This document shows positions 7,358 through 19,285 of a stretch of 45,210 nucleotides of DNA, one piece after another; position 1 is the stretch's first letter; every line of letters begins with the position of its first letter. The stretch comes from a virus (taxonomy: Duplodnaviria; Heunggongvirae; Uroviricota; Caudoviricetes), in IMG/VR virus record IMGVR_UViG_2711768053_000020, positions 1-45,210 of that record; one strand, 5' to 3'. Made by a program: the position numbers and the translations under genes. Under the pieces are notes generated by a model, which was given only the letters and a program-made list of their open reading frames with translations, did no database searches and was not told the DNA's origin.

Positions 7358-8101
7358 TTACCGTCCAATGATTAACGCTGAGACGCTGGTATCTGAAGGA
7401 AAGGCTGCATTCAGTGGTTTGTCGACTTTGAACACAATCGTATTATTCCCCCTGACAGCGGCAAAAGAACAAACCGCAGTCGCGTATGAACCTGTAATAT
7501 TACTGGATACACCACCATAAGCTGTTGTTGATACCAGAGGGACAACGCCCAGCACCTTATTAGGAAATACAAAGGGCAATGTGGCTGTGGCAATATAAGA
7601 CTTATTAGAGCCTGTGATGGCATAAGCATTATCAGTCATTCCATTCATCGCCACCGGGCCGCTTATACTTACAGTAACCATCTGAATGATTAGCCCGTCA
7701 GGTTGACGAATCACAAAATTTCCATTGCCACCAGTAACCGTCCAGAAAGACATATCAGGGATTTGGTTTTCCCCGTTGCCCACATTCCGTTTTGCCGCTT
7801 CTCCCAAACCAAGGTTTTCGAGAGCTGTTTTCACCGTGCCATCCGATTTGATATCGCCAAACGGATTCTTGCGGCTTAACAGCAGCGCACGAAGCGCGGT
7901 AAGCAGCTGGTCATGCCGCCCCTTCTCCAGGCTGGCACCGGATGCCTCCACAACGCTGCAAAGCTCCTCCTGCAACATGTCAAAGTAGTCATCATCCAGA
8001 TCGGTGGCAGGCGTGCCGGTCTGGGGGTTACCACGGGTAAAACCGTTCTTACCCGCGCCGAACTTATCCTTCTGCGCGGTTTTCGTGTCTATACGATGCA
8101 T
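7358..8101 (-). CDS. tail fibre protein (constant N-terminus plus currently expressed variable C-terminus)
   Basis: 247 aa ending the tail operon, immediately after the baseplate genes; crossover site embedded at residues about 94-101. Confidence 0.8.
7799..7824. repeat. invertase crossover site, copy 2 (inside tail-fibre gene)
   Basis: TTCTCCCAAACCAAGGTTTTCGAGAG in inverted orientation relative to 5830-5855; falls at codons about 94-101 (LGLGE) of the tail-fibre gene. Confidence 0.6.
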
Positions 8102-8104
8102 GGA

Positions 8105-8689
8105 TTACTCCGGATATTTAAAAATTACGTAGGTATGCGACGGGCAGAGTTTGTTAAGCACACATTCGACGACGGTGTCGCCCCAGATACGCAGTGCGGA
8201 ATCACAGGGATCACCACATGTCATCCAGGTGGTGTTGGTGGCGGATGGCATGTTGACCTGCCAGTAATACCGCCATTCCGGCGCATTCACCGCGTCAGTA
8301 CAGGCCGATGAGCAGGTGAACGTGCTTTTGTCGTATCGCGTGATGGTGGCGTCTGGTCTGCCCAGGGCAGCAAGCTGTGCAAGGTAAAAATCCTCATTGA
8401 TGCCGCCCGCCAGGTTAACCTTCGCATCCAGCCGTTGCTGACGCTGGCGAAGGGTCTGCGTCCCTGCGGGAATACATTCATCCGGCAGGCCGCACAGACG
8501 CTCCCAGCGATTTATCAGTTCAGTGGTGGTACGCGGATCCAGCTCCCGCATCAGGGCATCCGCACGCTTATGAACACGGGTTAATGACGGTGCCGCACCG
8601 GCAATCGCCGGATCGCTGGCTGACCATGCCGGACCGGGCGGCAACAGTGCCGATAACAGGCGGATGTAATCATCGTTTGTCACGTCCAT
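8105..8689 (-). CDS. baseplate/tail protein, Mu gp48-like (DUF2313-type)
   Basis: 194 aa, position between baseplate J-like gene and tail fibre; family assignment is from module position and recollection, not a search. Confidence 0.7.
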
Positions 8690-9738
8690 GAAATCGTCCC
8701 CAGAACCGCCAGTTCATTTTTCGCAATGGAGATATTGTCTGCCGGTGCAAGCAACTGATGGCTGTATTCCCCGTTCGCACCGGAAATCGCTTCACTGATA
8801 CGCGATACCTTCAGTTCTCCCTGCGGATAACCATCACGCAGCAGGAACGAACGCAACTCTGCGGTGATGGCAGCCCGTATTTCCGGTGTGTCCGGCGTCA
8901 CGCGGATATGAAAATCCACCGTATGCGCCACCGGCCTGAACACATACAAATCAGAACCTGCCACCGGGGCCAGTGGCTCGATGTGTTGTCGTACTGCCGT
9001 TTCCGTTGACTCTTCCGGAATGGGATTAATCAGGTCACTGCCGGCAATCATCACACCGACAGTTCCCGTTCCCATCCAGTGGCGGTATGTCCATGCGCGG
9101 GTAATGCCGGGCACTTCTTTAGCCCAGACGACATAGTCCCCGTCAGCCCCGCCCTGCGGCGTCCAGTAATACCGCTCAATGACGCGGGCGCGCCACGTTT
9201 CCAGCTCTTCAGTATCAAATCCGCCTGTCAGAGTGTCAGCCACACCGGAAGACGGCAGACCATTCACCGGCGTGACCAGGATTAATGCCGTACCGTCGTC
9301 AGCGTTACCGACCGCGCCTGCACTTGAGCAGGCGATCGGCACGCGCAGGACACCACCGGAGCTGGTTGCATCGGCAGTTGCCGTGTACTGAACCAGGTCA
9401 TCGCGCTGAATAACACTCCCGGCAGTCACTTTCAGGCCATCGCTGACACCTTCCCAGCGCATATACCCGCTGGCAGCCGTGGCCCCCTTGCGCGGACACC
9501 GTTTCATCGCAGCATGTCGCGCCAGCCAGGACTCATCGCACAGGTCAGGCAGCATGTTCATTGCCAGATAATCGATGTAACCGTAAACCGTATGCAGCGC
9601 CGCCGCATACACCTTTGCCCGCACGTCTTCATCCATGCGCCGGAGCGTGTCGCTGACGTCCAGCCTGGCGAATAAATCGTTACGGAGCATACTGATATTT
9701 TCTGCCAGCGTCGGGCGCTGAAATTCACTGTCCGCCAT
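8680..9738 (-). CDS. baseplate J-like protein (Mu gp47-like)
   Basis: 352 aa, overlapping neighbours in the tail operon; size and position match baseplate wedge protein J. Confidence 0.8.
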
Positions 9739-10153
9739 GCGTTATCGCACTCCACAGATCATCAAAAGAAATCATTACCGGTCCGTCACGACGCCAGAGA
9801 GTGATACTGTTACCCAGTTCATTAATCCCGGTGCGGCGGATATCCAGATCAATACGGGACACCACGCCGTCATCAATCATCCATTGCAGGCATTCGCGGA
9901 TATACCCCCTTACCGTCAGCACCAGCTGATTGGTCAGTTTGCTGCGCTGAAGCAGCCACAGCCGGGAGCCGTAACGGTCATTCTGTACCGCAGGCCAGGT
10001 ATCCCCCCACCATCCCATCGGGACGTCGGCGTTGTCATCAGGCTCCGCCCGCCGCCAGGTAAACAGGGAAATCACCACGGCGCGGGTCAGCGGATCCAGC
10101 GGTGCGCTGGCGCAGGTGCGTTTACCGTTCACCGTCAGCCACAGTTCCATCAT
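9725..10153 (-). CDS. baseplate protein, Mu gp46-like
   Basis: 142 aa small baseplate gene between spike and J-like genes; start overlaps the preceding gene stop. Confidence 0.7.
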   Translation of the reverse strand: MMELWLTVNGKRTCASAPLDPLTRAVVISLFTWRRAEPDDNADVPMGWWGDTWPAVQNDRYGSRLWLLQRSKLTNQLVLTVRGYIRECLQWMIDDGVVSRIDLDIRRTGINELGNSITLWRRDGPVMISFDDLWSAITHGGQ

Positions 10154-10698
10154 GCCTCCATCGCTTTATCAGGTTTGTCGGTGTTACTGCCCTGACCGTT
10201 CTCTCTGTGACGATGCCCGTTATAGGCAAGCCGCATCGCTGACATGGTGGTGCCGCTGGAGTCGCACAGGTCTTTCACCTGTCCTGTCACTTCCAGGTCC
10301 ATTTCAAAACGTGCTTTAGGTGAATTGCGAAACGTAATCGTTTTACCTGCACCGTCCACCACGATCCCCTCCCGGGTCAGCGTCACGGACTGCCCCTGAT
10401 CGTCATAGACAGCCACCTCACCCGTCTGCAGCCCTTTCAGGCGGTAGCGCCGGTCCGACACCGTAACAACCACCGCATGAGAACGGTCGCCATCCGGAAA
10501 CAACACCACCGCTTCCGCACCGCTGTTTGCCCTTGCGGTAAAACCGTAGGGTTCAAGATGTTCAACCCCGGCTTTGGGTTCACCGGCAATCAGGGACACA
10601 TCCACGGTCTGACATTTCGTGGCGGCACTGATGCTTTTCACCACGGCCCGCCCAATCAGGCCGAGGAGTTGTCGCTGCATGGCTTCAATCGTCCTCAT
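10150..10698 (-). CDS. baseplate assembly protein V / spike (Mu gp45-like)
   Basis: 182 aa; position and size consistent with the baseplate spike. Confidence 0.75.
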   Translation of the reverse strand: MRTIEAMQRQLLGLIGRAVVKSISAATKCQTVDVSLIAGEPKAGVEHLEPYGFTARANSGAEAVVLFPDGDRSHAVVVTVSDRRYRLKGLQTGEVAVYDDQGQSVTLTREGIVVDGAGKTITFRNSPKARFEMDLEVTGQVKDLCDSSGTTMSAMRLAYNGHRHRENGQGSNTDKPDKAMEA

Positions 10699-11777
10699 CA
10701 GAACGGGTCCTCCTGTACTCTGGCTTTTTTCTTTTTCCGCGCGCCGGGGGCTTCGGGTTCAGGCAGATAAGCATCAGGCGGGCCGACACGGATTTCCGTC
10801 AGGGTGCCGTTCTGGTCCTGAGTAAACGTGACTTCCGAGACAAGCAGTTCGGTATTGTCGAAACCACAGACCGGATCGAAGACAATCACCCGCTGGTTGG
10901 GCTGCCACAGCGTACCGTTACCCTGTCGCCAGCCCTGCACCACATAGGTGGTTTCATCCGTCCGCGCCGCCCGTTGTCGGGCTTCAAAGTCAGCACGCGC
11001 AATACAGCCTGCCCCCGTAGCCTGCCCTGTCTGCCTGATATACATCGGACGGTAACGGGCAATAAATGCGTCCTCTGTGCGGGCCCGCAGCGCAGTTGTG
11101 GTGGCCTCACCGAAATCATCGTCGTTTCCGGCACGCTGCCCCGCCACCTGGTAAACAGAAAACCGCTCCCGGATACTCTTCTCCGTATCGCAGGAAAGGA
11201 TGTTTTCCCCGAGTACCAGCGCGGTATGTGCCCGCGTTGAGCCAATACCGCCAATCACCAGCCTGCCGTGCGGGTCGTCATAAGCCAGCGCCTGCTGCTG
11301 ACCGAGTATTTTGTTAATCACCTCGATCACCGTTTCACCGTGATCAGGCTGGACATCAGGAATAACACCCGACGGCGCACCGCTGTTCACCACCTCAATG
11401 CCGAAGGGCGCAGCAAGCGTCTGCGCAATCTGTACCAGTGATCGTCCGTTAAACTGTGTCGGTTCGGCTGCACAATCAATCAGGTCAGCGGTCAGACTGC
11501 GTCCGGCAATACCGGTGCTGACCGAACGGGCATCGTAACGAACGGGCGTCGCCTCCACCCAGCCGGTGATCACCAGCTCATCACCAATCAGCGCCTCCAC
11601 TTTTGAACCGTTTTTAATGCGCGGCTGAAGCGTGGTGATACCCTCATCACCCGGCCACTGGCGGGTGATCTCCACACTGAAATCCCGCGCCAGTCGTTCA
11701 ACACCGGCACCGATGCGCACCGATGTCCAGCCATTCCACTCCCGGCCATTTACCCGTAGCGTGACATTGTCGTTCAT
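10698..11777 (-). CDS. tail/baseplate hub protein, Mu P (gp44)-like
   Basis: 359 aa downstream of the DNA-circularisation-like gene, translationally coupled to neighbours. Confidence 0.7.
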   Translation of the reverse strand: MNDNVTLRVNGREWNGWTSVRIGAGVERLARDFSVEITRQWPGDEGITTLQPRIKNGSKVEALIGDELVITGWVEATPVRYDARSVSTGIAGRSLTADLIDCAAEPTQFNGRSLVQIAQTLAAPFGIEVVNSGAPSGVIPDVQPDHGETVIEVINKILGQQQALAYDDPHGRLVIGGIGSTRAHTALVLGENILSCDTEKSIRERFSVYQVAGQRAGNDDDFGEATTTALRARTEDAFIARYRPMYIRQTGQATGAGCIARADFEARQRAARTDETTYVVQGWRQGNGTLWQPNQRVIVFDPVCGFDNTELLVSEVTFTQDQNGTLTEIRVGPPDAYLPEPEAPGARKKKKARVQEDPF

Positions 11778-13102
11778 TGCACTGGCACCTTCAGAGGGAT
11801 CACCGGCACAAAGCCGGGATGCGTAATGGCATTACGCCGGATAATGTCCGCATCACGCGCCGCGTTATCAAACCAGGTCGCCGCCAGCACCAGCGCGGGT
11901 AAAACCTCATCCGGTGTGCGCTGAATGATCCGTGCAGACTGTTCAAGGCGCGTGTTGATATCCGCATTCAGATCTGCTTTCACCCGGCGCAGTGCCAGAA
12001 ACAGCGCATCACTGGTTGTACGGGACAACTCCTTATCAATTGCCGTATTCAGTGTGTCGCGAATGTCAGTCAGTTCTTCCCACGTTGGCAGGTCAACCGT
12101 GTTTTTCACCGCCGGTGCATTGTTCAGTGCCGGATGCGTGACGGAAGGCCAGCCAGTGCTCTGCGCAGGTGTTGTTGCCTGCCCCACTGCGGCATTCTGC
12201 ATCACCGCGGAAGTTGTTGGCGCAGGCAATCGGGTGACGGCATACGCCGCTTCGCTGATTGCGGTCGTACGAAGGGTGCTGGCAACCTCGTTACGCTGAT
12301 GCGTCGCCGTGGCGGTGGTTTTACTGTCCGTTTTCCAGACGCCGCGCGGTTGCAGATCGCTGCCGAGGCTGACACCGGAAAGCGTTTTGATCATGGTGAC
12401 CAGGTCGCTGGCGTTACCATAAAGGCGTTTACCGGTACGCCACATTTTCTGCACCTGCTCAACGAAATTTTTGCCTGACGATGGTGGCGGCAGAAGTACC
12501 GAGATATCCCCCTGCAACAGCCTGGCAGCATCCGATACGGCAGAATCCACCACTTTCATCGCATCAGAAACATACCCAAGCATTGTGCCGGCATTACCGA
12601 CGACGTCGTTCTGCACAAAATCCGCCACGCCATCGATACTGAAACCGCTGAAGCTGTCACTGATGCAGTCATCCAGTGCAGAACAGGATGACATCAGCGT
12701 CTGCGCCGTCGCCGCACCTGATGTGGGGTAAGAGAGTTCTCCCGCTTCGACAAACTTCAGGTCAAAGCGGACAATACGCCCTTCACTCTTCGATGTGCTG
12801 ACCCGAACCTCTCCGTCAACACAGACTTTCAGCTCACCGTAAGTCGGATGGACAAGCGTGCCGGGACCGGGTTTATTCAGCGCGTCAATCAGGCGATCGC
12901 GCTGGTCAAAGCAGTCATCTCCCACCACATAAGCCGTGATGGACGGGCGGAAAGTGATTTTCCCCAGGTCTTCGGTATAGGGTTTGTCGCGGTTCGGGTA
13001 TTCGTGCGTTTCCACACGACGACCGGTTCCCGCACTTTCTTCTTCAACCTTAAACGGCACACCGCGAAATGACGCGTCCTGAAGTCTGTCTTTCCACGTC
13101 AT
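11774..13102 (-). CDS. Mu N-like DNA circularisation / tail protein
   Basis: N-terminal ...WKDRLQDASFRGVPFKVEE motif as in Mu N-family proteins; start placed at the internal Met, the track ORF extends to 13144. Confidence 0.7.
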   Translation of the reverse strand: MTWKDRLQDASFRGVPFKVEEESAGTGRRVETHEYPNRDKPYTEDLGKITFRPSITAYVVGDDCFDQRDRLIDALNKPGPGTLVHPTYGELKVCVDGEVRVSTSKSEGRIVRFDLKFVEAGELSYPTSGAATAQTLMSSCSALDDCISDSFSGFSIDGVADFVQNDVVGNAGTMLGYVSDAMKVVDSAVSDAARLLQGDISVLLPPPSSGKNFVEQVQKMWRTGKRLYGNASDLVTMIKTLSGVSLGSDLQPRGVWKTDSKTTATATHQRNEVASTLRTTAISEAAYAVTRLPAPTTSAVMQNAAVGQATTPAQSTGWPSVTHPALNNAPAVKNTVDLPTWEELTDIRDTLNTAIDKELSRTTSDALFLALRRVKADLNADINTRLEQSARIIQRTPDEVLPALVLAATWFDNAARDADIIRRNAITHPGFVPVIPLKVPVQ

Positions 13103-13162
13103 ATAAACTCCGTACATAAAAAATCCCACCGGAGTGGGACTCATTAACAGATTAATTTTTCA

Positions 13163-14998
13163 TTACCTGCCAAAGCGCGTATAGCCAACATCATGGCTGA
13201 CATCAAAACCGCTGGATCGCGTTTCCATAACCCGCATACCCGGAGGCGAATTCACAAAAGAGACCTTGATCTCACCATCAACTTTTGGCGCAGAAGCTTT
13301 GTTAATCATGAAGGGATTCGGGCCTGTGGCATCGGAGGCGTTGTTTGACTGAGCCGGATCCACCGCCGGATAAGGTGTGTATCCCCGCGCCGGTATTCCC
13401 GTCCCATAAGCATCATAAGCACCCGCGCCCCACTGCGCCGAGTTAATGGCATCGACCGTGTCACCGGAACTGTCGGTAAACCACTCAATAATTGGCTTCA
13501 GCTTGTCCCACATATCCTGAAACCACTTAACAACCGGCCCCCAGTTATTGATCACCATCCCCAGCGGCGACCAGGCAAAAACTTTCTTAAGGAGTTCCCA
13601 GCCAGCCTCAAAATAAGGACCAATGGTTTCCCAGAGCTTCTTGAAATAAGGTCCGACAACATCCCAGTTAGTGATAATTAATCCCGCAGCCAGGGCTATC
13701 GCCGTCGCAATCATGCCAATCGGCGTCATCGACATGATCCTGCTGACAATACTGATGGCACTGCCCACGCCCATCAATCCCAGTTTCAGAATCGCAAGAC
13801 CGGCAGCAAGTCCGACGACGCCGCGAATAACCCGGGGATTTTCATCCGCAAACTTCGTGAATTTTTCCCCCAACTCCCCCAGCCATTGCGTGATATTTTT
13901 GGCGTCACCAGAAAATGCGCCGCCAATAGCCGCAAGGCCGTTAGTTGCGGTCCCCGTCATTGCCTCCCACAAGTTGGACAGCGTACCAAGCTGGGCCTGA
14001 ACACGTTTATTCAGGCTGGCCTGTTTATTCATCTTCTGCTGGATCTGATCGTAGCCATCCTTTCCTTTATCGATCAGAGCATTGACCACCTGAAGGGTTT
14101 CGGCATCATCACCAAATATTGCCTTAAGTACACCTGTTCGCTTAACGTCGGTCAGTTTTCGCAGCTTTGCCAGTTGCTTAAACATGTTATCAAGACCGCC
14201 AAAACTCCCTTTGCTGTCAGTAAAATCGAGCTGCACTCCGAGTTTCTGGCGGGCCATAACTTTATTAACGTCCCTGATTTTCTTAACGCTTAATCCGGAC
14301 TGGATAACTTTTCGCAGGGCATTACCTGCCGACTCCCCGTTCATCCCCATCTGATCCATCATGACGCTGATAGGGGCAAGGCTCTGTGCAGCCTGAAGAC
14401 CGTCCTTGTTCACCATCTTCAGAACAGAACTGGTTTTAGTGAAGAAGGACAACATGTTGGTATCGTCAACGCCCAGATAAAACGCCTTCTGGATAGTGTC
14501 GAACAGCCCCATCATGTCTTCTGACGCCGTTCCGGTAGCATCCTGCATCTTTGCAGCAAACTCAGCAGCCGCTTCCGGTGTTTTTTTCAGTTGTACCGCA
14601 AGATAAGCTGTCGCTTTACCCACACCGCCCAGAATGTTTTCTGCCGGGATCCCCTGACGCACCAGCATCTGCATCATGTTCTGGAAATCAGCCGTTGTAC
14701 CGGGTAGCTGGTTACCCAGGCCAATAGCCAGTTTATTGATGTCCTGAAAGCTCTTTCCAACCTCGCCGTTCGCATCCATCATGGCGACTTTCAGCCCGGT
14801 GGCGGCGTTTTCCTGATCGGCATAAGATTTCAGGGAAAGCGTCAGACCCGCAGCCAGTCCGCCACCAAGCGCCAGCCCACCCTGTGACGCTTCTTCCGCC
14901 TGGCGTTTAAATCCCCGGATTTTCTTTTGCATTTTCGACAGCGCGGGAGAAAGCCTGTCGACACCGGTGATCAACGCCTTAAGCTCAAATTCAGCCAT
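13163..14998 (-). CDS. tail tape measure protein
   Basis: 611 aa, Ala/Gly/Leu-rich with predicted helical N-terminus and hydrophobic C-terminal part, located between chaperone and baseplate genes. Confidence 0.85.
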   Translation of the reverse strand: MAEFELKALITGVDRLSPALSKMQKKIRGFKRQAEEASQGGLALGGGLAAGLTLSLKSYADQENAATGLKVAMMDANGEVGKSFQDINKLAIGLGNQLPGTTADFQNMMQMLVRQGIPAENILGGVGKATAYLAVQLKKTPEAAAEFAAKMQDATGTASEDMMGLFDTIQKAFYLGVDDTNMLSFFTKTSSVLKMVNKDGLQAAQSLAPISVMMDQMGMNGESAGNALRKVIQSGLSVKKIRDVNKVMARQKLGVQLDFTDSKGSFGGLDNMFKQLAKLRKLTDVKRTGVLKAIFGDDAETLQVVNALIDKGKDGYDQIQQKMNKQASLNKRVQAQLGTLSNLWEAMTGTATNGLAAIGGAFSGDAKNITQWLGELGEKFTKFADENPRVIRGVVGLAAGLAILKLGLMGVGSAISIVSRIMSMTPIGMIATAIALAAGLIITNWDVVGPYFKKLWETIGPYFEAGWELLKKVFAWSPLGMVINNWGPVVKWFQDMWDKLKPIIEWFTDSSGDTVDAINSAQWGAGAYDAYGTGIPARGYTPYPAVDPAQSNNASDATGPNPFMINKASAPKVDGEIKVSFVNSPPGMRVMETRSSGFDVSHDVGYTRFGR

Positions 14999-15173
14999 GT
15001 GTGCGTTTCTCCTGCTCTATCCTGTTTGCCTGACTGACCAGCAAGGGAATTTCACTGATCGGCATATTCAGCAATTCGAAGGGATTAATGCGCCAGTAAC
15101 TGGCGCAGTCAAAGAAGCGATCAGTGAGGTATTCAGCCGTCAGGCCTGGAGGAAAAAACCGGCCACAAGCCAC
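14991..15173 (-). CDS. -1 frame extension of the tail assembly chaperone (GT / E+E' analogue)
   Basis: 60-codon ORF in the -1 frame relative to the chaperone, overlapping its 3' end across the slippery heptamer and running into the tape measure start. Confidence 0.5.
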   Translation of the reverse strand: MACGRFFPPGLTAEYLTDRFFDCASYWRINPFELLNMPISEIPLLVSQANRIEQEKRTHG

Positions 15174-15409
15174 GCCGCTGCATTCAGGTCTGCCGGAGAC
15201 ATCTGGTCGACAGAGCTTTGCGGCACTTTCGCCAGCCGCACAATGTATTTCGACACCACATGCGCCAGAAGTCTGACGGACTCATCCTGATTCATCTGGT
15301 AGGGATACCCCAGCTCGCGGACATCCTTCCCGGTGGGTTCATCAAACTCCAGTACGGAGAGTGTCTCGCCATGAGCAATAATCGGTTTCTTTAACTCAAG
15401 CTCTTTCAT
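15140..15409 (-). CDS. tail assembly chaperone (lambda G / P2 E analogue)
   Basis: 89 aa between tail tube and tape measure; ends in a slippery T TTT TTC run. Confidence 0.7.
   Translation of the reverse strand: MKELELKKPIIAHGETLSVLEFDEPTGKDVRELGYPYQMNQDESVRLLAHVVSKYIVRLAKVPQSSVDQMSPADLNAAAWLVAGFFLQA
15152..15158 (-). promoter_or_regulatory. candidate programmed -1 ribosomal frameshift site (T TTT TTC)
   Basis: X XXY YYZ heptamer positioned in the zero frame of the chaperone ORF, 10 nt before its stop; the downstream ORF is in the -1 frame. Confidence 0.45.
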
Positions 15410-15765
15410 TACTGGTAATCCCCTTCTTCACCGTGGAACTCAAGATCGACCGTGCCTTCTTCGGCATTATGGTTCGCTTCACCGTGCAGCCAGGCGGACG
15501 ACAGTACATAGACCTGACCGTTCGCCAGCTCGGCAGTGATGGTCATCTCATCAGACGAGGTGATTTTGCTCACCGGAAAATTCTTCGGCACCTTGAAGGT
15601 CCCTTTGACATAGGGCGCACGGTGAGTTTCCTTGCGGTCCACTGAACCGTCCAGGCCGATGATGTCATCATTGACCGTCCTGTTCATGGGCACCTCAATG
15701 CCGCCAGTCAGCGATAGCTGCTGACCGTCAATTTTGAAATAACAGGTTCCCCCGATACGGGCCAT
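15409..15765 (-). CDS. tail tube protein (Mu gp40-like)
   Basis: 118 aa immediately downstream of the sheath gene. Confidence 0.85.
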   Translation of the reverse strand: MARIGGTCYFKIDGQQLSLTGGIEVPMNRTVNDDIIGLDGSVDRKETHRAPYVKGTFKVPKNFPVSKITSSDEMTITAELANGQVYVLSSAWLHGEANHNAEEGTVDLEFHGEEGDYQ

Positions 15766-17261
15766 TATGCAGACTCCTCTGAATACTGAAGACGGAACTG
15801 GTTAACCACGGCAAAGACACGCAACTGGTTAACATAGTCAGGCGGGAACAGCGTGTTCAGGCGGTTCGGATCGCTGGCATCACGCTCCACAACCAGGTAC
15901 TGCTTAAACAGTTCGTAGTTTTCCACGATCCCCGCACGCTCAAGCTGACGGTAGGTTGCCAGCAGTTCCCCTTTGATCACCGCCGGGGTGACAATCGCCT
16001 GACCGGGACCAAAGCGGGTACCGTCGCTGGCAAGCTTGTGACGCCCGTACTTACTGGTAATGACGGATTTCAGTTTGCGCAGTACATACGCACTGGTATG
16101 CAGCGTCTCGCTGTCGAGGTAGCTGTTATCCGCAACCCCGTAAGCGTTTTTCCTGTACGTGGTGACATCACGCTGAATGCGCAGTACCCCGCTTTCGACA
16201 TACGCCGTTGCCACGCCATGAGACAGCAGGGTCTGTTGTTCGGTCATCGTGAACCGTTTCCCCTTCGGCGCAGGCAGCATACCCACCAGCTCACCGGTCT
16301 GCGTGGGACGTGCCGGATCGTTGCGGATAAACACTGCTGCGCGGGCGGTACGGCTTGCCGCCAGCTCGTCGGCAGGCGTCTGGGTCTCTTTTTCGTACCC
16401 CGCCAGGGTGATGTGCTGCTGGTTAAACTGGTCACCTGCGTTCACCAGTTCTGACAGTGTGCCTGTCTTTGCCGTATACACATGACCATACAGCTGACGC
16501 GCATAGCTCCAGCGACCGCTGGTATCGTTCATCTCGGTCACCAGCGTGTTAACGGAGGCCGTGTCGTTGAACGGCAGGCCGATATAATCAAACGGCTCAT
16601 CCGCCATTGCAGCCACCGCGCCGGTGAGAACAGGAGCGCCCGTTCCGGCGGTACCCGTCGCCACGGCAATCTGTACGCCCGCTGGCAGCACTTCGCCCCC
16701 ACCAAAGCCGTAGTAATTGAGGCTGACAGGAATTTCATTCCCGCAAAGCCCCTTATGACGCGCGGTCAGTGTGACCACGCCTGCCGAAGATGAGGCCGTA
16801 AACGGCAGGGCCGGAACGGCATTGATGGCATCTTTGATACTGCTGGCAATCGTCGTGACGTTATCGCCGTTGGTCACCGGTGCCTGCACGCGGGTACGTC
16901 CCACATAAACATTCACCGTGCCGGTTTCGGTTGCTGCTCCGGTCACCGTCAGCGTAACCGTTGCCGCCGCGCCTGTGGCTTCCGGAACGGCAATCACATA
17001 CAGCTCGCCAAACGGGTCGGTCTGGCGATAAGCCTCGACCATACGCGCCAGCTGACTTCCCGCACCACAAATCTGGCGTGCATAGTCTGCCGACGGCATC
17101 AGCACCAGACTGTTGGCAACAATCTCTGCACCGTTATTGGCGTGACCAATCAGCAACGATGCCCCGCTGTCCTGTGCAGTATTCGCCGCCGAGTTATCCA
17201 TTTCCGCATAAAACAGCGGAACCAGCGTATTCGACGGAATGGTGTTAAAGCTCATCGTCAT
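15765..17261 (-). CDS. contractile tail sheath protein (Mu gp39 / L-like)
   Basis: 498 aa, first large gene of the tail module; composition and C-terminus typical of sheath proteins. Confidence 0.9.
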   Translation of the reverse strand: MTMSFNTIPSNTLVPLFYAEMDNSAANTAQDSGASLLIGHANNGAEIVANSLVLMPSADYARQICGAGSQLARMVEAYRQTDPFGELYVIAVPEATGAAATVTLTVTGAATETGTVNVYVGRTRVQAPVTNGDNVTTIASSIKDAINAVPALPFTASSSAGVVTLTARHKGLCGNEIPVSLNYYGFGGGEVLPAGVQIAVATGTAGTGAPVLTGAVAAMADEPFDYIGLPFNDTASVNTLVTEMNDTSGRWSYARQLYGHVYTAKTGTLSELVNAGDQFNQQHITLAGYEKETQTPADELAASRTARAAVFIRNDPARPTQTGELVGMLPAPKGKRFTMTEQQTLLSHGVATAYVESGVLRIQRDVTTYRKNAYGVADNSYLDSETLHTSAYVLRKLKSVITSKYGRHKLASDGTRFGPGQAIVTPAVIKGELLATYRQLERAGIVENYELFKQYLVVERDASDPNRLNTLFPPDYVNQLRVFAVVNQFRLQYSEESA

Positions 17262-17415
17262 CGGTGTTCACCTTTTTATTCACGCGCCGGATATCTCCCG
17301 CTGCTTCACGGCGCAGCCAGTAGTTGTTCTCGTCAACATTTCGCCCTTCGGTGGGCAAAAGGTCACCGCGGGCAGGGTCAGGCACTGACCGCTCTTTAAC
17401 AGGTTTCACAAACAT
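17245..17415 (-). CDS. small hypothetical protein (56 aa) preceding the sheath gene
   Basis: ATG at 17413-17415 directly after the stop of the upstream gene; my own translation MFVKPVKERSVPDPARGDLLPTEGRNVDENNYWLRREAAGDIRRVNKKVNTDDDEL; stop overlaps the sheath start. Below the track length cutoff. Confidence 0.45.
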   Translation of the reverse strand: MFVKPVKERSVPDPARGDLLPTEGRNVDENNYWLRREAAGDIRRVNKKVNTDDDEL

Positions 17416-17423
17416 GAAGATTC

Positions 17424-17984
17424 TCAGGAAGGAAGGGTTATTTCGGTGTGATGTTCGATATCGCCGTCAGGCCCGTTACCGGGATCGAGATAATCAACAT
17501 CAATCGCCAGCGTTCGCAGTTCATCCAGACTGTTCAGCTCATCCTGCTGGCGGGTATCGTCTTCGGTCAGCTCGCTGATGACCGAAAAATCGAACTGATA
17601 AATCAGCTCATGACGATTCAGATCCAGCAGCGTGCCGCCGTCATAGGTAATCGGGTTACCGCACGCTTCCGGGTTCCAGCCCAGCAGGGCCTTAAAGAGC
17701 ATCTGCCGGACATCGTCCACCACATCATACGAGGCAAACTGACCGCGCTCATCACGCCAGTTACTCAGTATGACAACCACGGAGAAGCCCTCTTTCAGCT
17801 CCTGCCAGTAGTCGGTCTGGCTTTTGTTTTCTCCCGGAGAATCATCCCCCGGTACCACATATGCCGCCGGGAGTTTCAGCTTTCCGACCTCCGGCAGATT
17901 TTTGAACTGGGCCGCGCCTGCCACCCGGTTTTCAAAATACGGGCAGCGGGCACGCAGCGCAGCAATAACAGGCGTCAGTTTCAT
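17424..17984 (-). CDS. phage virion protein, Mu gp37-like
   Basis: 186 aa between the morphogenesis gene and the sheath; assignment by synteny. Confidence 0.65.
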   Translation of the reverse strand: MKLTPVIAALRARCPYFENRVAGAAQFKNLPEVGKLKLPAAYVVPGDDSPGENKSQTDYWQELKEGFSVVVILSNWRDERGQFASYDVVDDVRQMLFKALLGWNPEACGNPITYDGGTLLDLNRHELIYQFDFSVISELTEDDTRQQDELNSLDELRTLAIDVDYLDPGNGPDGDIEHHTEITLPS

Positions 17985-18457
17985 GTTTTTTTCCTTCTTA
18001 CAGGACGTAATGACCGCTGTAACTCACGGGACAGTAACTTTTGTGTCCAGTAACGACGCTGGTCGATGACATCAGCCATAAAGTTATTACGTGGTGCCAG
18101 CCGCCAGCGGGATGAATGCTGCTTTTTCTGGCGCTTATCCTTTTTGCTCATCCCGTATGCGGCATGACGCACACCGTAATACAGAAACGCCGGATAATAC
18201 GCAGAACCTTCAGGAAAACGCCGGTTACCCTGCCCGTTTTTCTGGTTAGGGGAGATCCTGACCATCAGGCCAGAACGACGGGAGCTTTTACGGGGGACGT
18301 AATAACCTATAGAGCGCGCAAGTCGTCCGGTCTGATAGCCGGGGTTTTCACCTGGAGCAGACCGACCACGTCGCATCACCAGCCGCCGGGCATCACGCAT
18401 ATAGACACGCCCGATTTGAACAAATGCCCTTCGGAGCCTGGCACGATTAAACTCCAT
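17981..18457 (-). CDS. virion morphogenesis / tail completion protein
   Basis: Basic, Arg-rich 159-183 aa product; track ORF starts at a GTG (18532) overlapping the upstream gene, internal ATG at 18457 is an alternative start. Confidence 0.55.
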   Translation of the reverse strand: MEFNRARLRRAFVQIGRVYMRDARRLVMRRGRSAPGENPGYQTGRLARSIGYYVPRKSSRRSGLMVRISPNQKNGQGNRRFPEGSAYYPAFLYYGVRHAAYGMSKKDKRQKKQHSSRWRLAPRNNFMADVIDQRRYWTQKLLSRELQRSLRPVRRKKT

Positions 18458-18476
18458 CTCCTCCGGTTGTTTGAAA

Positions 18477-18887
18477 TCAACGTGTAAAAATGCTGTCTGC
18501 TCCACTGCGTCCTCCCATTTGTTCTTCGGCACCCAGTTCCGTACACTCCAGCAGCAGAAAGCGCCGCGCCCCGTTCAGATCACGCTGACGTTTCACCCGG
18601 TACACACTGTCATCACAGACCACCTCATAATCAGCAGTGATCCTCCGGCGGTAGCGAATGGTGATGTAATGGGTGATGGCGTCTCCGATCTGCGCGGTTT
18701 CCTGCCAGGTGGTGGCACTGGTCTGGATAACCTTCGCCCATGCCCGGAACGCAACCGGGTATTGAGGCTCCACGCCAAAGTTATCCGCGGGCATATCCAC
18801 CCGCTGGCGGATCAGGACGCGTTTATTAAGTTCGCCGGGATCCGGCAGAATGTAGGTTGCGCTGGTCTGCGCCTGACGAATTTTCAT
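18477..18887 (-). CDS. head-tail adaptor / head closure protein
   Basis: 136 aa following the connector gene. Confidence 0.6.
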   Translation of the reverse strand: MKIRQAQTSATYILPDPGELNKRVLIRQRVDMPADNFGVEPQYPVAFRAWAKVIQTSATTWQETAQIGDAITHYITIRYRRRITADYEVVCDDSVYRVKRQRDLNGARRFLLLECTELGAEEQMGGRSGADSIFTR

Positions 18888-19207
18888 AGTGGTATAAGGC
18901 GATAAGGAACAACCAACCAGTTAAAACTCATTGGCAACTCCATTTTCTCAACGTCTGTAACCGTTGAGCGGTTTTCGTAGAAATGGCTGACAAGTAGCAG
19001 AAGCGCCAGCTTCACATCATCAGATATCACAAGCCCATCAGGATCATCCGCAGGCCTGTCATCTGCGGTTGCATACAACTTACGGTTAAGGAAGTTTTCC
19101 GTACGACTCTGAGCGGCCTTACCAAGCAGTTCAAGCAACTCATCTTCATCAGAGAAATCATCATCCAGACGGAGCTGAAGCTTAATCTCTTCCATTTTTA
19201 ACAGCAT
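18884..19207 (-). CDS. head-tail connector protein (gp6-like)
   Basis: Acidic about 107-aa product; start placed at MLLKMEEIKL (ATG at 19205-19207) preceded by AGGAGG; the track ORF extends upstream into the terminator hairpin. Confidence 0.6.
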   Translation of the reverse strand: MLLKMEEIKLQLRLDDDFSDEDELLELLGKAAQSRTENFLNRKLYATADDRPADDPDGLVISDDVKLALLLLVSHFYENRSTVTDVEKMELPMSFNWLVVPYRLIPL

Positions 19208-19239
19208 AAAACCTCCTGTGCCCGCCAGAACGCGGGCAC

Positions 19240-19260
19240 AAAAAAACCGCATTACGCGGC
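19240..19260 (-). terminator. putative partial intrinsic terminator after the major capsid gene
   Basis: On the - strand a short GC stem (CCGC-GTAAT-GCGG) is followed by a T7 run, about 26 nt after the capsid stop; a second 8-bp hairpin (19218-19239) lies just before the next RBS. Confidence 0.35.
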
Positions 19261-19285
19261 GTGCTGTATTACGTAAAAAGACTAA

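What the first reader, a model, noticed from the sequence alone, without database searches (positions are those of the whole stretch)
14991..15409. Candidate programmed -1 frameshift in the tail assembly chaperone
The chaperone ORF ends 10 nt after a T TTT TTC heptamer in its zero frame, and a 60-codon ORF in the -1 frame overlaps it and runs into the tape-measure start. This matches the conserved G/GT (lambda) and E/E+E' (P2) arrangement.
Basis: partly seen in the sequence, partly recalled or inferred. Interest (0 to 1): 0.45.

Follow-up and report, generated by a model that had tools for sequence, protein, structure and literature searches.

The report
Tail chaperone programmed -1 frameshift site
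This is the usual programmed ribosomal frameshift that tailed phages use to make a short and a long tail-assembly chaperone from one gene, here in an SfV-like prophage of E. coli/Shigella; it looks real and conserved but is not annotated in the public records I inspected, and it is biologically ordinary.

Summary
On the minus strand, an 89-codon chaperone gene (15409-15140; Pfam PF10109, the P2 gpE / Mu gp41 family) lies between the tail tube gene and the tape measure gene. It carries an in-frame T_TTT_TTC heptamer (15158-15152) 9 nt before its stop. From that heptamer the -1 frame stays open for 53 codons. It ends in a TGA (14993-14991) that overlaps the tape-measure ATG (14998).

Comparative evidence supports a programmed -1 frameshift:
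- All 29 distinct related sequences analysed (27-100% chaperone identity, several bacterial orders) and 4 of 5 more distant phages keep an in-frame T_TTT_TTY/G at the same codon.
- All of these keep a 50-64 codon -1 extension with conserved motifs.
- 20 of the 29 have no start codon from which the whole extension could be translated on its own.
- Wobble-position variation switches from frame 0 to frame -1 at the heptamer.
- The three wobble bases inside the heptamer never vary.
- The fusion aligns end to end with P2 E+E', and the shift sites coincide.

No stimulatory structure was found at the canonical spacing. The window is about 98% identical to phage SfV. None of the five records whose annotation I read marks the frameshift. 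This is a new, unannotated member of a well-known kind, and interest is low.

The parts
15409..15765 (-). Tail tube gene (118 aa). Its stop overlaps the chaperone start codon (ATGA).
   Evidence: PF10618 Tail_tube E=2.4e-33; phrog_185 tail tube protein.
15140..15409 (-). Frame-0 tail assembly chaperone gene (89 aa), the counterpart of P2 gpE and lambda gpG.
   Evidence: PF10109 Phage_TAC_7, E=2.4e-15, 56.7 bits against a cutoff of 25. phrog_166. RefSeq/PGAP names it 'phage tail assembly protein'.
15152..15158 (-). Slippery heptamer T_TTT_TTC (X_XXY_YYZ in frame 0; codons Gly-Phe-Phe 84-86).
   Evidence: Read directly. Conserved as in-frame T_TTT_TTC or T_TTT_TTT in 29/29 distinct related sequences, and intact in 80/80 near-identical IMG/VR loci. 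The wobble bases at offsets 0, +3 and +6 are invariant, while the flanking wobble sites vary by 0.62-0.80.
14991..15152 (-). -1 frame extension: 53 codons (PPGLTAEY...EQEKRTHG) plus TGA, the counterpart of P2 E' and the lambda T domain. The full fusion product is join(15409..15152, 15152..14991) and is 139 aa.
   Evidence: phrog_32181 E=3e-41. 50-64 aa extensions with the motif [YF]-[WF]-x-[ILMV]-x-P ... A-x-R-[IL] in all relatives. Wobble variation shifts to the -1 frame here. Aligns with P2 E'.
13163..14998 (-). Tape measure protein gene (611 aa). Its ATG (14998-14996) overlaps the stop of the -1 extension by 8 nt (ATGGCTGA). An AGGAG at 15013-15009 lies 10 nt upstream of the ATG.
   Evidence: PF10145 E=3.5e-27; phrog_28 and phrog_17727 tape measure. 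Sequence read. P2 E+E' and T show the same 8-nt overlap.
15052..15127 (-). Predicted mRNA structure inside the extension coding region. A 10-bp stem (15127-15118 with 15061-15052) encloses a 7-bp hairpin GCGCCAG-TTA-CTGGCGC (15106-15090). It starts 24 nt 3' of the heptamer. Whether it belongs to the frameshift signal is doubtful.
   Evidence: MFE -32.4 kcal/mol, z=-3.7. The hairpin is kept in close relatives without compensatory changes; the outer stem is 67% paired. It is absent in the SfIV/ST64B/phiP27 clade.

Best explanation
What it is: a programmed -1 ribosomal frameshift in the tail assembly chaperone gene of an SfV-like prophage (Mu-type contractile tail).

How it works:
- Most ribosomes translate the 89-aa chaperone and stop at the TGA at 15142-15140.
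- A minority shift back one base when tRNA-Phe occupies the P site on UUU and another tRNA-Phe occupies the A site on UUC of U_UUU_UUC. Both tRNAs re-pair with UUU UUU.
- The shifted ribosomes continue for 53 codons and make a 139-aa fusion (...VAGFF-PPGLTAEY...). Its stop overlaps the tape-measure start codon.

Inferred function, by analogy with lambda G/GT and P2 E/E+E':
- The shared N-terminal part binds the tape measure protein.
- The rarer C-terminal extension recruits the tail tube subunit.
- A fixed short:long ratio supports tail assembly, and neither protein stays in the virion.

Shown here: the anatomy, the homology, and nucleotide- and protein-level conservation of the site and the extension. 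Inferred: the frameshift event itself, its efficiency, and the binding partners.
For: (1) Gene identity and position. PF10109 (the family of P2 E and Mu gp41) lies between PF10618 tail tube and PF10145 tape measure, with sheath upstream and the DNA-circulation protein downstream.

(2) Conservation of the site.
- An in-frame T_TTT_TTC/T sits at chaperone codon 82-88 in 29/29 distinct sequences from Enterobacterales, Derxia and a Methylococcales MAG. Chaperone identity to the window ranges from 100% down to 27%.
- The same holds for Burkholderia phage BgVeeders33 and Pseudomonas DVM-2008.
- T_TTT_TTG is found in Pseudomonas PG1, Bordetella PBb002 and P2.
- The codon before Phe-Phe encodes six different amino acids (GGT, CGT, AAT, AGT, CCT, GAT) and always ends in T. 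The first Phe codon is always TTT.

(3) The frame-0 tail after the heptamer varies from 9 to 63 nt and is not conserved. The -1 extension is always 50-64 aa, is conserved in sequence, and ends at or on the tape-measure start.

(4) Start codons. 20 of the 29 sequences have no ATG/GTG/TTG in the -1 frame upstream of the extension, and 6 have none anywhere in it.

(5) Codon-phase switch, measured in 12 sequences of equal length. Mean pairwise difference at frame-0 wobble sites against -1 wobble sites:
- upstream of the heptamer: 0.52-0.54 against 0.06-0.13;
- in the extension: 0.10-0.29 against 0.41-0.46;
- in the tape-measure gene: 0.59 against 0.09.

(6) An HHalign profile of 15 fusions against P2 E+E' aligns columns 5-133 with residues 6-136 (probability 80%, E=1.4e-5). 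GFF| lines up with GFL|, and the extension lines up with E'. P2 has the same sizes (91 and 142 aa) and the same 8-nt overlap with its tape-measure gene.

(7) U_UUU_UUC and U_UUU_UUU are experimentally shift-prone in E. coli: 0.12% and 0.33% bare, 7.6% and 10.2% with a pseudoknot. Both are among the under-represented heptamers (PMC4066793 and its Table S3).
Against: - No fusion protein has been observed for this phage group. None of the five records whose annotation tables I read marks the shift. No paper in the searched library describes it.
- No stable structure lies at the canonical 5-9 nt spacing, only a 4-bp hairpin. No Shine-Dalgarno-like element lies upstream.
- The bare motif gives only about 0.1% shifting in a reporter. 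The efficiency here and what sets it are therefore unknown.
- One homologue, Paraburkholderia phage IPK (an 'UNVERIFIED' record), has GGC TTC TTC and no slippery run.
Confidence: 0.88

Rival explanations
1. The long product is made by transcriptional slippage, not ribosomal slippage. RNA polymerase would add one extra U while copying the T6 run (T7 in the SfIV/ST64B clade). A fraction of mRNAs would then encode the same fusion (GGU UUU UUU CCU ...).
For: - The site is a homopolymer run.
- An extra U gives exactly the same protein, so conservation of the run and of the extension cannot separate the two mechanisms.
- UUUUUUU runs are avoided in E. coli genes in all three frames, and transcriptional slippage is one suggested reason (PMC4066793).
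Against: - Six or seven residues is short for efficient polymerase slippage. Known programmed cases use about nine or more (my own knowledge of the literature, not tested here).
- The run always sits in the X_XXY_YYZ phase, and the homologous P2 site is treated in the literature as a translational frameshift.
- U_UUU_UUC is a measured ribosomal -1 shift motif.
Confidence: 0.06
2. The -1 ORF (15173-14991) is an independent small gene translated from its own GTG start. One phage record and PHROG family 32181 treat it this way.
For: The window has an in-frame GTG at 15173. Record ON470584 annotates the ORF as a separate hypothetical protein. phrog_32181 holds such ORFs.
Against: - 20 of 29 related sequences have no start codon upstream of the conserved extension, and 6 have none in the whole -1 ORF.
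- I see no Shine-Dalgarno-like sequence before the GTG.
- Conservation in the -1 frame begins at the heptamer, not before it.
Confidence: 0.02
3. The heptamer and the open -1 frame have no recoding function. On this view the T-run simply encodes Phe-Phe, or belongs to a weak intrinsic terminator, and the 141-nt stretch before the tape-measure gene is untranslated spacer.
For: A consensus scan flags a terminator-like site: a 5-bp stem at 15172-15160 followed by the T-run. Public annotation leaves the stretch empty.
Against: - The scan found 2 sites where 0.9 +/- 1.0 are expected by chance. The stem is weak, and upstream hairpins are no more stable than shuffled sequence in 20 loci.
- A spacer would not show protein-level conservation and a codon-phase signature in the -1 frame across orders of bacteria.
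- It would also not show six different amino acids all using T-ending codons before the run.
Confidence: 0.03

Closest known systems
Bacteriophage P2 gpE / gpE+E' (-1 frameshift at T_TTT_TTG; Christie et al. 2002 and Xu, Hendrix & Duda 2004, as cited in PMC3091744)
   Same: - Same Pfam family (PF10109) and the same position before the tape-measure gene.
- Same sizes: 91 and 142 aa in P2, 89 and 139 aa here.
- Slip site at the homologous codons: GGT TTT TTG in P2, GGT TTT TTC here.
- The extension is homologous over its length (hhalign). P2 has FHWPPSEL where this phage has YWRINPFEL.
- Same 8-nt overlap between the extension stop and the tape-measure ATG.
- No obvious downstream structure.
   Different: - The last base of the heptamer is C (T in the sister clade), so the A-site codon is Phe UUC rather than Leu UUG.
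- Only 22% identity in the profile alignment.
- The tail module is Mu/SfV-type (sheath, tube, DNA-circulation protein), not P2-type.
- No Pfam-A family matches the extension.
- No experimental proof for this group.
Bacteriophage lambda gpG / gpGT (-1 frameshift at G_GGA_AAG)
   Same: Same logic. The chaperone gene lies between the major tail and tape-measure genes. A low-level -1 shift near its end sets a fixed ratio of short to long product (30:1 in lambda; PMC5009743). Neither protein is in the virion.
   Different: No detectable sequence similarity. The heptamer and tRNAs differ (Gly/Lys against Phe/Phe). Lambda has a non-contractile tail, and in lambda the T domain binds gpV. The partner here is presumed to be the tube protein but is untested.
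Bacteriophage Mu gp41 (tail assembly chaperone with a -2 frameshift)
   Same: Closest tail module overall: Mu L, M, gp42 and N homologues flank the gene. PF10109 is described as the family of 'E, or 41 or 14'.
   Different: - Mu gp41 is 144 aa.
- Its extension lies in the +1/-2 frame and there is no T-run. The literature reports -2 frameshifting in Mu (PMC2628397; PMC5009743).
- The SfV-like group keeps the P2-type -1 site instead.
E. coli dnaX and IS911/IS3-type -1 frameshift signals
   Same: An X_XXY_YYZ heptamer decoded by tandem slippage of two tRNAs. U_UUU_UUC occurs in IS elements.
   Different: Those signals rely on an upstream Shine-Dalgarno-like element, a hairpin or pseudoknot 5-9 nt downstream, or both. 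Neither is found here.

Membership tests
Tail assembly chaperone frameshift (lambda G/GT - P2 E/E+E' class, Xu et al. 2004) | Gene located between the major tail (tube) gene and the tape measure gene | tested here: met
   Tube 15765-15409, chaperone 15409-15140, tape measure 14998-13163, all on the minus strand, each with a Pfam/PHROG assignment.
Tail assembly chaperone frameshift (lambda G/GT - P2 E/E+E' class, Xu et al. 2004) | A second ORF overlaps the 3' end of the chaperone gene in another frame, fills the gap up to the tape measure start, and has no conserved start of its own | tested here: met
   The -1 frame is open for 53 codons from the heptamer to 14991 and overlaps the tape-measure ATG. 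20/29 relatives lack any upstream start codon.
Tail assembly chaperone frameshift (lambda G/GT - P2 E/E+E' class, Xu et al. 2004) | Slippery sequence in the correct phase within the overlap | tested here: met
   T_TTT_TTC at 15158-15152 in frame 0. The motif is experimentally shift-prone in E. coli.
Tail assembly chaperone frameshift (lambda G/GT - P2 E/E+E' class, Xu et al. 2004) | The site and the trans-frame extension are conserved among homologues beyond what frame-0 coding requires | tested here: met
   33/34 distinct loci keep T_TTT_TTN. The wobble bases of the heptamer are invariant, the codon phase switches at the site, and the extension is conserved.
Tail assembly chaperone frameshift (lambda G/GT - P2 E/E+E' class, Xu et al. 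2004) | The fusion protein is actually made at a low, fixed fraction and is required for tail assembly | not testable with these tools
   Needs protein detection and mutagenesis. No report was found in the searched literature.
Pfam PF10109 Phage_TAC_7 (P2 gpE, Mu gp41) | Score above the curated gathering threshold over the full domain | tested here: met
   56.7 bits against a cutoff of 25, residues 4-86 on profile positions 2-78 of 79. All 15 diverse fusions also match.
P2 E' extension (trans-frame C-terminal domain) | Detectable homology of the extension to P2 E' | tested here: inconclusive
   No Pfam-A or NCBIfam family matches the extension as such: the only row at E<=10 is an unrelated sub-threshold match, PF02744, E=0.15. 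The profile alignment to P2 E+E' runs through the extension, but probability is only 80% with E=1.4e-5 for the whole alignment.
Mu-type -2 frameshift chaperone | Extension encoded in the +1/-2 frame relative to the chaperone | tested here: not met
   Here the extension is in the -1 frame. In Mu it is in the +1/-2 frame.
Stimulated -1 PRF cassette (dnaX / IS3 / IS911 type) | Stable hairpin or pseudoknot starting 5-9 nt 3' of the heptamer, and/or an SD-like element 6-17 nt 5' of it | tested here: not met
   - Only a 4-bp hairpin lies 5 nt downstream.
- The strong structure starts 24 nt downstream and is not conserved outside the closest clade.
- The upstream 24 nt fold no better than shuffled sequence, and I see no SD-like motif.
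- Pseudoknots were not searched for explicitly.
Programmed transcriptional slippage | Long homopolymer run (typically 9 or more A/T) and heterogeneous transcripts | not testable with these tools
   The run is T6 here and T7 in the sister clade, shorter than known programmed cases (own knowledge). Transcript heterogeneity needs RNA sequencing.

The most novel reading that the evidence does not exclude
The SfV clade may reach a useful frameshift level without any canonical nearby stimulator. The candidate element would be the unusually stable structure that begins 24 nt downstream: a 10-bp stem enclosing the GCGCCAG-TTA-CTGGCGC hairpin, z=-3.7. Some other context feature, such as the nascent peptide or the flanking bases, could also serve. 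This would be a distal or non-canonical enhancer of -1 frameshifting, and it could explain how tail chaperone sites whose bare motifs give only about 0.1% shifting reach percent-level efficiency.
Probability: 0.1. Interest if true: 0.35.

Novelty: new member of a known kind. Interest (0 to 1): 0.13.

Why it matters
The main value is for annotation. This prophage family is present at 80% or more query coverage in 896 of 5,426 complete E. coli genomes, and related sequences occur in Shigella, Citrobacter, Edwardsiella and Pantoea among others. Yet the 139-aa trans-frame chaperone is missing from the RefSeq/PGAP and GenBank records I read. In those records the 141-nt stretch is either left empty or, in one case, called a separate hypothetical protein.

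The result also shows that the P2-type T-run site is shared by Mu/SfV-type contractile tails, while Mu itself uses -2. That is a neat example of recoding-site turnover within one protein family. It does not open a new biological question.

Tried and rejected
- **Downstream stimulator.** I folded 112 nt and 91 nt around the site and folded 17 homologues. I counted pairs of the window's MFE structure on 15 aligned relatives. The stable element is too far from the site, clade-restricted, and confounded with the coding of C-A-S-Y-W-R.
- **Upstream hairpin or terminator reading.** Prompted by the consensus scan. Rejected because upstream folds equal shuffled sequence in 20 loci.
- **Naturally fused single-ORF versions.** The three full-length database hits (P0001-P0003) are singletons on short contigs with indels at scattered positions. 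These are assembly errors, not real fusions.
- **Independent initiation of the -1 ORF.** Rejected.
- **Plus-strand ORFs antisense to the region** (14967-15290 and others). No PHROG match. The longest shares its wobble phase with the chaperone and looks like a shadow ORF.
- **Family assignment of the extension.** No meaningful Pfam or NCBIfam match. No homologue among solved structures: best E=0.009, unrelated.
- **IMG/VR scan.** It returned only near-identical copies. These were useful only to show 80/80 intact sites.
- **Literature.** The primary papers could not be read: Xu et al. 2004, Christie et al. 2002, and Allison et al. 2002 on SfV. I therefore cannot say whether SfV is already listed there.
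Full report
**1. What is in the sequence**

All relevant genes are on the minus strand. In order they are:
- tail sheath, 17261-15765 (PF04984/PF17482);
- tail tube, 15765-15409 (PF10618);
- an 89-codon ORF, 15409-15140;
- a tape measure gene, 14998-13163 (PF10145);
- a DNA-circulation/baseplate hub gene, 13144-11774 (PF07157).

The 89-aa protein matches PF10109, 'Phage tail assembly chaperone proteins, E, or 41 or 14', with E=2.4e-15 and 56.7 bits against a cutoff of 25. Its 3' end reads GCC GGT TTT TTC CTC CAG GCC TGA.

- The heptamer T_TTT_TTC occupies 15158-15152 in the X_XXY_YYZ phase.
- The stop codon follows after 9 nt.
- From the heptamer the -1 frame is open for 53 codons (PPGLTAEYLTDRFFDCASYWRINPFELLNMPISEIPLLVSQANRIEQEKRTHG).
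- It ends with TGA at 14993-14991, inside the sequence ATGGCTGA that also holds the tape-measure start.

**2. Where the window comes from**

- Positions 7751-24786 are 97.8% identical to the first 17 kb of Shigella phage SfV. The rest matches lambdoid early regions of related phages.
- The 601-nt region around the site is 98-99% identical in SfV, SfII, SfI and two E. coli phages.
- It is found at 80% or more coverage in 896 of 5,426 complete E. coli genomes.
- In five records whose annotation tables I read (SfV in GenBank, a RefSeq/PGAP E. coli chromosome, and phages vB_EcoM-689R6, EPP-1 and AH07), no frameshift or joined CDS is annotated.
- In those records the 141 nt between the chaperone and the tape measure are empty, or in one record called a separate 'hypothetical protein'.

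**3. Is it more than chance?**

Within the window, a greedy set of 56 long ORFs contains 74 in-frame X_XXY_YYZ heptamers. That set happened to replace the chaperone with an antisense ORF. For none of the 74 would a -1 shift extend the protein more than 47 nt beyond its own stop. The comparative evidence below is what decides the matter.

*Conservation of the site.* I collected homologous loci from annotated phages, from one genome per species and from IMG/VR.
- In 29 distinct sequences, an in-frame T_TTT_TTC or T_TTT_TTT sits at chaperone codon 82-88 in every case. Chaperone identity to the window falls as low as 27%. The hosts span Enterobacterales, Derxia and a Methylococcales MAG.
- Burkholderia phage BgVeeders33 and Pseudomonas DVM-2008 have T_TTT_TTC.
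- Pseudomonas PG1, Bordetella PBb002 and P2 have T_TTT_TTG.
- The codon before Phe-Phe encodes Gly, Arg, Asn, Ser, Pro or Asp in different lineages, and it is always the T-ending codon. The first Phe is always TTT.
- All 80 near-identical IMG/VR copies keep the heptamer.
- The single exception is Paraburkholderia phage IPK, an 'UNVERIFIED' record, with GGC TTC TTC.

*Conservation of the extension.* The frame-0 tail after the heptamer is 9-63 nt long and unrelated between clades. The -1 extension is always 50-64 aa, ends at or on the tape-measure start, and has invariant Ala, Pro, Ala and Arg positions within a [YF]-[WF]-x-[ILMV]-x-P ... A-x-R-[IL] pattern.

*No independent start.* 20 of 29 sequences have no ATG, GTG or TTG in the -1 frame upstream of the extension. 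6 have none at all.

*Codon-phase switch.* I used 12 equal-length sequences and measured mean pairwise difference by codon phase.

| Region | Frame-0 wobble sites | -1 wobble sites |
|---|---|---|
| Upstream of the heptamer | 0.52-0.54 | 0.06-0.13 |
| Extension | 0.10-0.29 | 0.41-0.46 |
| Tape-measure gene | 0.59 | 0.09 |

The frame-0 wobble positions immediately upstream of the heptamer vary by 0.62-0.80. The three inside the heptamer are invariant.

**4. Relationship to known systems**

*P2.* A profile of 15 fusion proteins aligns with P2 E+E' from residue 6 to 136 (probability 80%, E=1.4e-5).
- GFF| lies over GFL|, and the extension lies over E' (YWRINPFEL against FHWPPSEL).
- P2's annotated arrangement is E at 91 aa, E+E' at 142 aa, and a -1 shift at GGT TTT TTG, with the E+E' stop overlapping the T start by 8 nt. 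The geometry here is nearly identical.

*Mu.* Its tail genes are the closest overall relatives, but it differs. Gp41 is 144 aa, and the conserved extension lies in the +1/-2 frame. This matches the -2 frameshift reported in the literature (PMC2628397; PMC5009743).

The SfV-like group therefore combines a Mu-type tail module with a P2-type chaperone frameshift site.

**5. Mechanism**

This step follows from established knowledge of tandem-slippage frameshifting and was not shown here.
- With tRNA-Phe on UUU in the P site and tRNA-Phe on UUC in the A site, both can re-pair one base upstream on UUU UUU.
- Sharma et al. measured -1 shifting in E. coli (PMC4066793, Table S3):

| Heptamer | Bare | With IS911 stimulators | With the IS3 pseudoknot |
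|---|---|---|---|
| UUUUUUC | 0.12% | 0.89% | 7.6% |
| UUUUUUU | 0.33% | 0.45% | 10.2% |
| UUUUUUG | 0.12% | 0.25% | 0.77% |

- They rank H_HH.U_UU.Y among the efficient classes.
- The function of the two products is inferred from lambda. There, G and GT bind the tape measure, the T domain recruits the major tail protein, the ratio is 30:1, and neither protein is in virions (PMC5009743).

**6. Search for a stimulator**

*Downstream structure.*
- The 112 nt downstream fold to -32.4 kcal/mol, against -21.7 +/- 2.9 for shuffled sequence (z=-3.7).
- The structure is a perfect 10-bp stem (15127-15118 with 15061-15052) around a perfect 7-bp hairpin (15106-15090). It starts 24 nt after the heptamer, well beyond the usual 5-9 nt.
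- At 5 nt there is only a 4-bp hairpin.
- A fold that includes the site itself is no better than shuffled sequence (z=-0.74).

*Conservation of that structure.*
- Similar folds occur in the closest relatives (z about -2 to -5) but not in more distant ones.
- On 15 aligned sequences the inner hairpin is 91% paired with no compensatory change. It encodes the conserved C-A-S-Y-W-R.
- The outer stem is 67% paired.

*Upstream.* There is no SD-like element, and no hairpin more stable than shuffled sequence. This also disposes of the terminator-like hit from the consensus scan.

Lack of a nearby structure is reported for P2 as well (PMC3091744). What sets the efficiency remains open.

**7. Rivals**

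- Transcriptional slippage on the T6/T7 run would give the same protein and cannot be excluded from sequence. The run is short for that mechanism, so I give it about 6%.
- Independent translation of the -1 ORF (about 2%) and a non-coding spacer or terminator (about 3%) are contradicted.
- Apparent single-ORF fusions in the protein database are error-ridden singletons.

**8. Verdict**

It is a programmed -1 frameshift of the P2 E/E+E' type in an SfV-like prophage.
- I found no annotation or open-access description of it for this phage group.
- I could not read Xu et al. 2004, which may already list it.
- It is a new member of a thoroughly known kind. Its value lies in correcting annotation, and it holds little surprise for a specialist.

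Noticed in passing
window 15052-15127 (minus strand): A perfect 7-bp hairpin GCGCCAG-TTA-CTGGCGC (15106-15090) is nested in a perfect 10-bp stem (15127-15118 / 15061-15052) inside the extension coding region. The 112-nt fold has z=-3.7. It is conserved only in the closest clade and shows no compensatory changes in the hairpin. Its role, if any, is unknown.
   Followed up: partly
L119:1420-1540 (Paraburkholderia phage IPK, PV588664, 'UNVERIFIED'): The homologous chaperone encodes Gly-Phe-Phe as GGC TTC TTC, with no slippery run. The conserved extension frame opens only 9 nt before the frame-0 stop. Either the recoding site is different or the record has a sequence error.
   Followed up: partly
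L116:2553-3132 (phage Mu) against the window and L117 (P2): Within one chaperone family (PF10109) the extension is reached by -1 at a T-run in P2, SfV-like, Pseudomonas, Burkholderia and Bordetella phages. In Mu it lies in the +1/-2 frame with no T-run. This is turnover of the recoding site within a conserved tail module.
   Followed up: partly
window 14967-15290 (+ strand): A 107-codon ORF runs antisense to the chaperone and its extension. It is longer than the real gene and displaced it in a greedy longest-ORF gene call. It has no PHROG match and shares its wobble phase with the chaperone, so it is most likely a shadow ORF.
   Followed up: yes
L115 (IMGVR_UViG_2541047860_000003), about 90 nt after the heptamer: In one of the 80 near-identical viral contigs the extension diverges after ...FELLN into unrelated sequence, and the -1 frame runs on for 508 codons. 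This suggests a rearrangement or insertion that disrupts the extension and the tape-measure start.
   Followed up: no
L048 and 8 other IMG/VR loci, tape-measure start: A variant reads ATGGCGGAATTTGA instead of ATGGCTGA. This moves the extension stop two codons downstream (55 aa) while changing only a synonymous site of the tape-measure gene.
   Followed up: no
L007 (Salmonella phage 118970_sal3, NC_031940): The record splits the sheath into three CDSs and the tape measure into at least two, and its chaperone ORF has an aberrant tail. These look like sequencing indels, so I left it out of the comparative counts.
   Followed up: no
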